Below are positions 52,160 to 55,545 of a stretch of DNA of 64,000 bases, one piece after another. A program made the position numbers and the translations under genes. Every line of letters begins with the position of its first letter. Positions within the stretch are counted from its first letter, which is position 1. The notes below the pieces were generated by a model. That model made no database searches. It had not been told where the DNA came from and worked only from the letters and a program-made list of their open reading frames with translations. The stretch covers positions 620,001 to 684,000 of the forward strand of contig NW_027191415.1 of assembly GCF_041146345.1 (NCBI RefSeq), written 5' to 3'. The DNA comes from Neodothiora populina (Eukaryota).

Positions 52160-53723
52160 ATGTACGAAGTCCGCACCAACATACCGTCTGCTCCCGTATC
52201 TTCAGATGTTCGCTCTCCATTGCTACTGTCACCCATCATGGTGAATCCGGAATTGGCCAAGCAGGCAGCGCATGAGAGATGGCGGAGATGGGTTGGGCTG
52301 GGACTGTTGTTCACCACTGTCATTCTCTGGACTGCCTCCAATTTCCTTGCTAGTGTATGACTTTGTTCGCCCATTATTGATTTGAATGCAGAGAGTGTTT
52401 TGTGGTTGCTAATATTCTATGTCTTCTCTCTGAATGTAGACGCTATTCGCAGATGATACCTATTCCAAACCATACCTGGTCACCTATGTCAATACCGCTT
52501 TCTTCATCCTACCGCTCATCCCTATCCTCATCAAGCGTGCCTACGAAGACCCGTCATCTCTTCACGAATTGAACCGATCATGGCGCCGGAGTCTGTCTCG
52601 CTATACGCCTTTGAAACAGATGGACGAAGAAGAGAATGGCGAAACATTCCACAAGCCGGATAGCCCACGCTTCCACCTCGACGTTCCGGACGACGACGAC
52701 GACGACGACACACACATTCCGCACAACGAGTCCGAGGCTATGCAGCGATCTCAGGTGTTGAGTGTTCGATCTGTAAAGCACACGGAGCCTGCTCTGACTC
52801 TGCGCGAGACTGCCCGGCTGAGTCTTGAATTCTGCTTCCTTTGGTTTCTGGCAAACTATTTCGTCGCAGCCTGTCTGGAGTACACCACTGTCGCGTCCAG
52901 CACCATTCTCACCAGCACAAGCAGTATATTCACACTGCTGTTCGGCACCATCTTCCGCGTCGAGAAATTCACACTCAAGAAACTGCTCGGAGTCCTGGCT
53001 TCTCTGGCTGGTATTGTGCTCATCTCCACCGTCGACCTTAGTGGTGACAGCGACAAAAACCGCGGTTCTTTCCCTCACAAATCATGGAACGAAATCGCTT
53101 TGGGTGACGGCATGGCTCTGTTCTCGGCCGTCATGTATGGTATTTACGCTGTCATGATGAAGAAAAGGATAGGAGACGAGAGGAGGATCAGCATGCCTCT
53201 GTTCTTTGGACTGGTTGGGCTGATGAATGTGCTTATGTTGTGGCCTGGCTTCTTCATCTTGCACTGGACCGGTGTTGAGACGTTCGAGCTGCCAGGTGAT
53301 CGAAGGGTCGTGCTCATCATATTGGTAAGTCGGAGTTGTATACCTCACATCCTCCACCGCTCTTTGTTGAAGACATTTGCTAATTGTAATGCGAAACAGG
53401 TGAACTCCATAAGCTCTCTCGTTTCCGACATGGCCTGGGCCTACGCCGTCCTGCTGACGTCTCCCATTGTGGTCACGGTCGGCTTGAGCACCACGATCCC
53501 TCTCTCGCTCATCGGCCAGATCTTCCTCAACTCGCAGCATGCCAGTCTGGTCTACTGGGTCGGAGCCTGCGTCGTATTGATCAGCTTCTTCTTCGTCAAC
53601 CACGAGGAAGCCAAGGAGGATGGCGAGGAAGAGCAAAACGAGGAGATAGAGCGAGGGTTGCCTCCGATTAATGTCGGCAATGTCATAGTTGACGATGAAC
53701 ATGTCGTTGTTGTTGAGCCATAG
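52160..53723 (+). CDS. EamA/SLC35F-family transporter (THI74/YML018C-like); exons 52160-52354, 52440-53324, 53400-53723
   Basis: LWTASNFLAS|TLFADDTYSKPY, FCFLWFLANY, TTVASSTILTSTSS and LTSPIVVTVGLSTTIPL; multiple TM helices. Start could be ATG 52238. Confidence 0.85.
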
Positions 53724-54150
53724 AATTACCCTAGATTTTGTATGCTTCATGACTTATGCTTGTTTTTGTGATTTGTTGTGGTCGATAATGCTCATTGCGT
53801 GATACACGTTTACGGTAAATGTGCAAGCCAACAGGTCTACTTGGGTATCACACGGTAGATCCGCTCATCATATGATGAACCTGTAGAATAAGCACACTGA
53901 TAGGCGCATATGTTACTACATTATGTTCGATATACTGGGGCTCGACTAGGTAGACATTTATGTTCTACACACCAGGGCTTGATAGGGTAGACATTTTTGC
54001 ATACAAGCGGAGAAGCCCACTTTTCGCTATCTAGAGCAATTGCGACAGAGATGATCATGAATATTCAGACATGCAAATTATATCAATACCGAAAAATATA
54101 AGTAAACAAAGATTTAGCGAGTGCCCAAAATAATCAAGAAATAAAATGCC

Positions 54151-54318
54151 AAAAAAATTGGTTTGTCTGCGAGAGAATCCATTAGCAACTGTATTCAATA
54201 TGTCTAAATGTCAATGGTGGGAATCGAACTAACCTCTTTGTTCACATGTGTCATCCTTAGTGCAGGGGCCATGCTAATCTTCTCTGTATAGTTTCAAATT
54301 GACCAAATGCCCGAAGGC
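54151..54318 (-). ncRNA. U6: U6 spliceosomal snRNA, split by an intron (exons ~54318-54234, 54166-54151)
   Basis: GCCTTCGGGC 5' hairpin, then ACAGAGAAGATTAGCATGGCCCCTGCACTAAGGATGACAC (ACAGAGA box, AGC triad, ISL), CAAAGAG|ACAAACCAA and a T7 Pol III terminator. Confidence 0.96.
54167..54233 (-). other. 67-nt spliceosomal intron within U6 containing a Pol III B-box
   Basis: Donor GTTAGT, branch GCTAAT, acceptor GCAG; AGTTCGATTCC at 54230-54220. Confidence 0.88.
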
Positions 54319-54340
54319 GAAGTTGGTCCTATTTCTACTG

Positions 54341-54348
54341 ATTATATA
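54341..54348 (-). promoter_or_regulatory. TATA box of the U6 gene
   Basis: TATATAAT about 23-30 nt upstream of the inferred +1; internal A-box-like TGGTCAATTTG at 54305-54295. Confidence 0.7.
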
Positions 54349-55128
54349 CTCATGGCTAATGCTACCACCCCTCTTTCAAAATCCGAAAATTCATGCGTAT
54401 GGGTGCTGCGCGCACATCTCCCATACACATATCGCTGAATTCGAGTTTTTGCATTAGATGGTGTTTCTTCTCTGCTCTTGTCTTGCGATGACCAGCTAAT
54501 CAATCAATCAGTCGCTCGTCATTTCATCTGTACCATCGCACCGAAGATATCCATGATCCTGCGCTAATGCATGAATTGTGTTCCCTCGAGGGAAATTGGG
54601 CGAAATCAAAACGTCCCATGACCTCAGAGACGGACGCACACACAGCACCGCACACGCTCAACGGGCATCATTCAGGCGCAGAGACTGGACATGACTTGCG
54701 CAATTGTGTCCCGCAAGAAATGGTCATCTTCAAGACTTCATTTGTGACGAAAAAGGTAAAATGAATGTAATGCGGGCAGGGAACACGGAGAGTATCCGTA
54801 CTCAGGAGCGAGGGGAGGGGAAAGAATCGGTGGGGCATTTTTGCAAAAATTAGGTGTGGTGCTTGCTGCCCGCCGGCTTCGGGTCCGCCAGCCAGCCATA
54901 CTGTATTCTGTTCTCCACACGCTCTGGTGGCTTTCTGGGCCTACTGCGATTGTGATGAACTTTCTTACTGTTTGAGCATGCGGGAGAGTCGTACTTGTCC
55001 TGCGCTTGAGGCCATTTGAAAATGAGTCTGTCCTCTGCATGGTACTCGGTGGCCGGCCTTGTGCTGTAGAGGCCTCAGATTGCTCTTGTAGGTATGGTGT
55101 GGTCTACGACTTCATCCGTACCCGTCGT

Positions 55129-55155
55129 CTGGAGCTGGAGCTGGAGCTGGAGCTG
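55129..55155. repeat. (CTGGAG)4.5 tandem repeat
   Basis: Perfect hexamer run. Confidence 0.85.
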
Positions 55156-55545
55156 CATAGTCCCTTTCAATATGCGAGTGTACGATGAAGGCGTGTGTCT
55201 CCGTCAATCACCTGAGCCTGACGATTCATGCTAAGATACAGATGTACCATCGCTCCGAAATCTCTAGGCGAGATTGTTCGAGTATGACTACGTACGGTGA
55301 GTATATCACAAATGATGAGCAATGTTTACTTTCTGCGGTTTGCCCAATGTGGAAGAGAATATTTCTTCAATCTATCGATCGATCATAATAAAGAAATAGG
55401 CATTATCGGAGTACCGAGCAATCGTCCTCGTCTTCGTCTGCAGCGTTCACACTCCTCGACAACCAACCGTATAGCTCAATCGGCAAAGCACCATACTGAG
55501 CTGGAACCTCCGATCATCTGGCTACGCAGATCATATGAACAACTA

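What the first reader, a model, noticed from the sequence alone, without database searches (positions are those of the whole stretch)
54215..54305. Pol III B-box overlapping the U6 intron 5' splice site
Seen: the intron begins GTTAGTTCGATTCCCACCA. The donor hexamer GTTAGT shares AGT with a B-box match (AGTTCGATTCC; consensus GGTTCGANTCC). An A-box-like TGGTCAATTTG lies about 65 nt upstream in exon 1, and a TATA lies at about -30. Established: S. pombe U6 has an intronic B-box, while S. cerevisiae places it downstream of the gene. Inference: the same bases serve as a DNA element for TFIIIC and an RNA signal for splicing, which could lock the intron in place. TTCGATTCCCAC also resembles a tRNA T-loop plus 3' T-stem, hinting at a tRNA-derived origin (speculative).
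Basis: partly seen in the sequence, partly recalled or inferred. Interest (0 to 1): 0.7.

Follow-up and report, generated by a model that had tools for sequence, protein, structure and literature searches.

The report
Promoter box at U6 intron start
This fungus's only gene for the splicing RNA U6 keeps its likely internal promoter element at the very start of an intron, so three DNA letters probably serve both transcription and splicing; fission yeast has a similar arrangement, and the overlap itself is easy to get by chance.

Summary
Observation confirmed (minus strand). The single U6 gene of a Dothideales fungus has a 67-nt GT-AG intron near its 3' end. A Pol III B-box starts at intron base +4. 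It scores 15.5 bits on a matrix from this genome's tRNAs, the best site in 64 kb, with nothing above 5.3 bits within 1 kb. Its 3' flank also matches a profile trained on B-boxes downstream of other fungal U6 genes (shuffle P 0.0002; 0.074 or lower in all 18 variants). It is probably the real TFIIIC site, an independent counterpart of the Schizosaccharomyces intronic B block. The overlap with the donor is cheap: 32 of 37 other U6 introns have T at +6 and 35 have G at +5, so an intronic B-box lands on the donor about 28-42% of the time. Lock-in follows from the intronic location, not from the overlap. No tRNA source was found; other U6 B-boxes are equally tRNA-like. No orthologous intron was found among 97 fungal U6 genes, so conservation, splicing and binding remain unshown. 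The scan's notes hold related cases on other DNA, not this one.

The parts
54341..54348 (-). TATA element, starting at -30
   Evidence: a TATA-like word at similar distance in 30 of 48 clusters of related U6 loci
54234..54318 (-). U6 exon 1 (85 nt); the start site is inferred from alignment, not mapped
   Evidence: Rfam RF00026 75 bits; spliced alignment
54295..54305 (-). A-box-like 11-mer at +14; fits TRGYNNANNNG (consensus recalled)
   Evidence: its conservation in relatives is circular because the search motif included most of it
54167..54233 (-). 67-nt GT-AG spliceosomal-type intron; longest T run is 3, so no Pol III terminator inside
   Evidence: recovered by spliced alignment to an intronless relative; T runs and branch distance; single copy in the genome
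54228..54233 (-). 5' splice site GTTAGT
   Evidence: the same hexamer starts 2 of 32 introns in the related clusters
54220..54230 (-). B-box core (tRNA positions 52-62) at intron +4 to +14; +4 to +6 shared with the donor
   Evidence: 15.5 bits, top site of the window
54206..54219 (-). 3' flank of the B-box (equivalent to tRNA positions 63-76), matching the flank profile of B-boxes downstream of other fungal U6 genes
   Evidence: 7.26 bits; 0 of 112 null sites reach it; shuffle P 0.0002; range of variants
54181..54186 (-). branch-site motif GCTAAT; branch A about 16 nt before the end of the intron
   Evidence: relatives 10-24 nt
54151..54166 (-). U6 exon 2 (9 nt) followed by a T7 Pol III terminator
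   Evidence: joined with exon 1 it differs from the mature U6 of L069 at 4 of 97 positions, none near the junction

Best explanation
This is the genome's only U6 gene, with a tRNA-like (type 2) Pol III promoter: TATA at -30, A box at +14, B box at +89. The B box lies in the first 14 bases of a 67-nt spliceosomal intron. Shown: the sequence elements, their spacing, the single copy, the restored U6 3' end after removing the intron, and the absence of any other B-box nearby. Inferred: TFIIIC tau-B binds the box and its 3' flank in DNA and places TFIIIB on the TATA. Pol III then reads about 168 nt through the intron to the T7 run, and the spliceosome removes the intron. Intron bases +4 to +6 are read twice, once as DNA by TFIIIC and later as RNA by the splicing snRNAs, so the two uses do not compete. 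The overlap most likely exists because a donor ending in GT already supplies G53-T54, which makes it the cheapest place for a B-box to arise or to be tolerated. If the box is needed, exact intron loss would remove it, as in Schizosaccharomyces.
For: Top B-box score in 64 kb, nothing above 5.3 bits within 1 kb. The A-to-B gap of 64 nt is inside the 32-93 bp range of yeast tRNA genes (PMC11724288). Related U6 genes use B-boxes: 13 of 48 clusters have one of 10 bits or more within 250 nt downstream, against 2 of 80 control windows (Fisher P 5e-5); 10 of 48 if three possibly tRNA-gene sites are dropped. A flank profile trained on 14 such sites, without the window, scores the window above all 112 null B-like sites; shuffle P 0.0002, column permutation P 0.00035. 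TFIIIC tau91 makes base contacts downstream of the B-box, conserved at ETC sites (PMC11724288), which carry a 10-base 3' extension (PMC3395662). Of 37 other U6 introns, 35 have G at +5 and 32 have T at +6, and 3 are one base from a core B-box in this register.
Against: No binding, transcription or splicing data. No orthologous intron: none of 32 introns in 26 other clusters is at this site, so conservation is untested. 35 of 48 related clusters have no box of 10 bits or more, so many of these U6 genes may do without one or use weaker or distant boxes. The flank positions 63-76 were chosen with the window in view; longer windows give P 0.006-0.074. Only about half of the training sites show the flank signature in leave-one-out (6 of 14 rank within the top 4 of 112), and those loci may be related to each other.
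Confidence: 0.72

Rival explanations
1. Captured module: the intron began as an inserted copy of a ready-made TFIIIC site (the gene's own former downstream B-box element, or the 3' third of a tRNA gene). It was tolerated in an essential single-copy gene because its first bases happened to be a splice donor. Function is as in the best explanation; only the origin differs.
For: The intron starts exactly at the position equivalent to tRNA base 49 and matches the flank profile out to 76. Best match to a tRNA-Leu 3' end is 8 of 11 free positions, P 0.025. This genome has a tRNA arm starting with a perfect donor hexamer (L160/L233). Downstream boxes lie only 11-23 nt past the gene's end in 4 of 13 cases. 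Trypanosomes use tRNA-gene boxes for U6 (PMC2943599).
Against: No tRNA with this arm and none within 3 mismatches over 21 nt. Overall identity 18 of 25, null P 0.08-0.11. Only 3 of 5 stem pairs, and the arm does not form in the fold (z 0.56). No second copy in the genome and no local duplicate. Selection for TFIIIC contacts explains the flank without common descent.
Confidence: 0.2
2. Chance look-alike: the gene runs on TATA and A box alone (or a distant site) and the B-box match has no function.
For: 35 of 48 related clusters lack a strong box. Donors are pre-adapted to look like the start of a B-box, with about 0.0017 per intron for a full core in this register. Donor-plus-box strings occur 23 times in the genome, fewer than the reversed control (36), and most look like neither introns nor tRNAs.
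Against: About 4e-4 expected near the gene for the strict motif. The independent flank signature. [quoted passage not shown]
Confidence: 0.1
3. Selected coupling: the overlap is itself kept by selection, tying U6 transcription to the strength of its own splice site.
For: The shared bases are among the most constrained in both signals: G53 in 45 of 45 and T54 in 44 of 45 tRNA ends; +5 G in 35 of 37 introns.
Against: The overlap is expected in 28-42% of intronic boxes by composition alone. The two readers act on different molecules. None of the other 32 introns shows it.
Confidence: 0.07
4. Not an intron: the gene is damaged at its 3' end, or the insert stays in the RNA.
For: Splicing was not observed here. 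The Rfam alignment runs into the insert.
Against: It is the only U6 in the genome. Donor, branch motif and AG are canonical, with the length just above the 48-65 nt of relatives. Removal restores a 3' end identical to L069 over positions 77-94. The first long T run comes only after exon 2.
Confidence: 0.04

Closest known systems
Schizosaccharomyces pombe U6 gene with an intronic B block (Frendewey 1990; Tani and Ohshima 1989; seen only as passages of the review PMC5855946)
   Same: Single-copy Pol III U6 gene, mRNA-type intron, A block in exon 1, B block inside the intron.
   Different: The S. pombe intron lies next to the catalytic AGC triad (review); here it follows nucleotide 85, near the 3' end, so it is an independent gain. 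In S. pombe the box lies between donor and branch site, not on the donor (recalled; the paper was not held).
Lineage-specific U6 introns across fungi (Canzler 2016; seen only through PMC5855946 and PMC5832005; paper not held)
   Same: Canonical splice signals, otherwise unconserved, at scattered positions. I found 20 other positions in 26 clusters.
   Different: None of the 32 introns sampled here carries a valid B-box: the best, 10.7 bits, lacks A58 and the next is 4.6 bits. Whether Canzler's set or supplement has this site or a donor-overlapping box could not be seen.
S. cerevisiae SNR6 and Pezizomycotina U6 genes with a downstream B block
   Same: TATA, internal A block and B block; the same 3' flank signature as the downstream boxes of relatives.
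   Different: There the box is past the terminator (+123 to +282 in 13 clusters; about 200 bp from the A block in SNR6); here it is at +89 with tRNA-like spacing.
ETC (extra-TFIIIC) extended B box of budding yeast (PMC3395662, PMC11724288)
   Same: B-box core plus conserved 3' bases that tau91 contacts.
   Different: ETC sites recruit no Pol III. I did not compare the ETC extension base by base (it is in figures and supplements not seen).

Membership tests
U6 snRNA gene (RF00026) | Covariance-model score above the gathering cut-off | tested here: met
   75 vs 44 bits; only match in the genome
U6 snRNA gene (RF00026) | Complete 3' end with oligo-T terminator | tested here: met
   exon 2 plus T7; 4 differences of 97 to L069
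U2-type spliceosomal intron | GT donor, branch motif, YAG, fungal length, removal restores the host RNA | tested here: met
U2-type spliceosomal intron | Removed from the RNA in vivo | not tested
   no reads were laid on the gene
Type 2-like Pol III promoter | B-box consensus at tRNA-level score | tested here: met
   15.5 bits; tRNA range 7.5-18.6
Type 2-like Pol III promoter | A box near the start and A-B spacing in the tRNA range | tested here: met
   +14; 64-nt gap against 32-93 bp
Type 2-like Pol III promoter | TFIIIC binds and the box is needed for transcription | not testable with these tools
   needs footprint, ChIP or mutation
Schizosaccharomyces-type U6 intron with B block | Intron at the site next to the AGC triad (orthology) | tested here: not met
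   intron after nucleotide 85 against the review's description; it works like that system but is not a member by descent
Schizosaccharomyces-type U6 intron with B block | Box conserved among orthologous introns | tested here: inconclusive
tRNA-derived insert or SINE | Matching source tRNA in the genome | tested here: not met
   best 18 of 25 among 45 tRNA ends, an incomplete set
tRNA-derived insert or SINE | Intact 5-bp T stem | tested here: not met
   3 of 5 pairs; not formed in the fold
tRNA-derived insert or SINE | Further copies in the genome | tested here: not met
   only the self match at E up to 10

The most novel reading that the evidence does not exclude
The intron was born from a Pol III promoter module: an extended TFIIIC site shaped like a tRNA 3' end was inserted into the U6 gene and survived because a B-box arm starting GTNAG is itself a splice donor. 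The old downstream box then decayed, leaving an essential spliceosomal RNA whose transcription depends on an intron that it must help to splice. This would be a route to intron gain and fixation through promoter capture.
Probability: 0.18. Interest if true: 0.62.

Novelty: new variant of a known kind. Interest (0 to 1): 0.38.

Why it matters
If the box works, this is a second, independent case of a U6 gene moving its promoter into an intron, and a compact test of whether taking up a promoter element fixes a new intron. U6 introns come and go between fungal species, so close relatives could show the order of events. It also has a practical side: a U6 upstream region from this lineage used alone to drive guide RNAs would lack its B-box. 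The overlap with the donor adds little by itself.

Tried and rejected
None has an intron after nucleotide 85. The three loci with one after 86 are not significantly similar to the window's intron (P 0.19-0.67). No flank or intron homology and no syntenic neighbour gene were found in these loci. The viral (1 hit) and prokaryote (9 hits) scans gave only non-U6 matches. Direct tRNA source: rejected as unshown. Local duplication as the source of the intron: none seen. T-arm hairpin in the RNA: not formed. A second B-box up- or downstream: none. Papers: Canzler 2016 and Frendewey 1990 were not held. Searches listed no paper that by title or abstract start describes a donor-overlapping B-box (0 papers with all five terms). 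The library lacks the two most relevant papers, so this is weak evidence of novelty.

Full report
Setting. The neighbouring transporter gene is 100% identical over the 287 residues queried to a protein labelled Neodothiora populina; the next named hit is Delphinella at 78%. The window is therefore from a Dothideomycete; placement in Dothideales is recalled. The genome has 24 Mb in 18 contigs and one U6 match.

Observation. All elements are on the minus strand. U6 scores 75 bits at 54318-54219. Exon 1 is 54318-54234, the intron 54233-54167 (67 nt), and exon 2 with a T7 run 54166-54151. The branch motif GCTAAT starts at 54186. TATA is at -30, the A-box-like 11-mer at +14, and the B-box match at +89, which is intron +4 to +14.

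Is the intron real? A spliced alignment to an intronless fungal U6 recovered exactly this 67-nt intron. The joined product differs from the mature U6 of L069 at 4 of 97 positions, none between 77 and 94; L069 has no intron at this site. The longest T run in the intron is 3, so Pol III should read through. Splicing itself was not observed.

Is the B-box more than chance? The strict motif occurs once in the window, with about 4e-4 expected in 250 nt. I collected 45 distinct tRNA 3' ends from this genome (an incomplete set) and built a matrix. The site scores 15.5 bits (tRNA range 7.5-18.6, 12 of 45 no higher), is the best in 64 kb, and nothing else within 53300-55300 exceeds 5.3 bits. The 64-nt A-to-B gap is in the 32-93 bp range reported for yeast tRNA genes (PMC11724288, passages).

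Relatives. Of these, 97 are full-length U6 and fall into 61 clusters besides the window. Of 48 clusters with at least 200 nt downstream, 13 have a box of 10 bits or more within 250 nt, all downstream of the gene, against 2 of 80 control windows (P 5e-5). Three of the 13 may be tRNA genes (L045 was called one), which leaves 10 of 48. The other 35 have no strong box, which counts against assuming that the box is essential. The 26 intron-bearing clusters hold 32 introns at 20 positions, none at the window's site. None holds a valid box: the best, 10.7 bits, lacks A58, and the next scores 4.6.

A second line of support. B-boxes downstream of related U6 genes share a 3' flank resembling a tRNA end: C at the position equivalent to 72 in 10 of 14 sites against 18 of 112 null sites (P 4e-5), C66 in 8 of 14 against 27 of 112, A73 in 8 of 14 against 36 of 112 (P 0.08), then T-rich sequence. 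These 14 exclude three tRNA-like sites and three that miss the core. A profile of positions 63-76 trained on the 14, without the window, gives the window 7.26 bits. None of the 112 null sites reaches that, shuffles of the intron body give P 0.0002, and column permutation gives 0.00035. I chose the span with the window in view. Over 18 variants of span and training set P runs from below 0.0001 to 0.074, weakest for spans past position 76, where relatives often have long T runs that an intron of a Pol III gene cannot afford. Yeast tau91 makes base contacts downstream of the B-box that are conserved at ETC loci (PMC11724288, sections 26-27 read), and ETC sites have a 10-base 3' extension (PMC3395662, passages). 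The flank is thus what a working TFIIIC site would be expected to have.

Is the overlap special? Among 37 distinct introns of related U6 genes, +5 is G in 35, +6 is T in 32 and +4 is A in 24. These are the bases of B-box positions 53, 54 and 52. Three introns are one base from a core box in this register. The estimated chance that an intronic box falls on the donor is 0.28-0.42. Genome-wide, donor-plus-box strings number 23 against 36 for the reversed control, and one of them is a tRNA arm. The dual use of three bases is real if the box works, but it needs no special explanation. Lock-in would follow from the only box lying in the intron, with or without overlap.

tRNA origin. No other place in the genome has this arm or comes within 3 mismatches over 21 nt. 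The best match is to tRNA-Leu 3' ends, 18 of 25, null P 0.08-0.11, or 8 of 11 free positions, P 0.025. Seven of 17 other U6-linked sites reach 18 or more of 25 (one or more are tRNA genes), as do 12 of 112 null sites. The stem has 3 of 5 pairs and does not form in the fold. The intron is single-copy with no local duplicate. The likeness is general to these boxes and fits TFIIIC preference, though capture of a ready-made module is not excluded.

Comparison. The review PMC5855946 (passages) states that the S. pombe B block lies in the U6 intron, that this intron is next to the AGC triad, that SNR6 has an essential downstream B block, and that many fungi have unrelated U6 introns. The two primary papers were not held, and their supplements may already list this site. 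PMC5832005 and PMC2943599 were seen as passages. The window works like the Schizosaccharomyces gene but is not orthologous in intron position. The scan's own notes gave no look-alike in other genomes and only related themes by words.

Verdict. A real feature and a new variant of a known kind: an independently gained U6 intron that probably holds the gene's B-box, with a donor overlap that is largely a by-product of two compatible consensus sequences. Interest 0.38.

Noticed in passing
L046, L058, L071, L095, L118, L135, L142, L036 and others, 11-183 nt past the U6 end: B-boxes downstream of fungal U6 genes often continue like a tRNA 3' end (C at 72 in 10 of 14 against 18 of 112 null sites, often A at 73 and a T run) without the rest of a tRNA. 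This could be an extended TFIIIC site or decayed tRNA genes.
   Followed up: partly
L120, intron after U6 nucleotide 24: Its first 18 bases match the window's intron at 15 positions, more than any of 588 pairs of introns at different sites (maximum 14). It lacks the B-box core and is not among the best whole-intron alignments. Probably chance, but it shows that three changes separate an ordinary intron start from this box.
   Followed up: partly
L073, L080, L148, intron after nucleotide 86: Intron one base 3' of the window's site with the same donor hexamer, no box inside and a box just downstream of the gene (13.3 bits in L073). Not significantly similar to the window's intron.
   Followed up: partly
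L054, L085, L146: U6 introns one substitution away from a core B-box in the donor register; L054 and L085 have no strong box within 250 nt downstream.
   Followed up: partly
L045: A diverged U6 copy directly followed by an intron-containing tRNA gene; a possible U6-tRNA tandem or pseudogene.
   Followed up: no
L103 cluster: An 18.6-bit B-box lies 100-350 nt upstream of U6, perhaps a neighbouring tRNA gene that could serve the U6 promoter.
   Followed up: no
window 53921-53994: Two head-to-tail 37-nt copies, 76% identical, between U6 and the transporter gene.
   Followed up: no
window 54102-54112 and 54235-54245: An 11-nt inverted match (91%) between the end of U6 exon 1 and DNA about 40 nt past the terminator; probably chance.
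   Followed up: no
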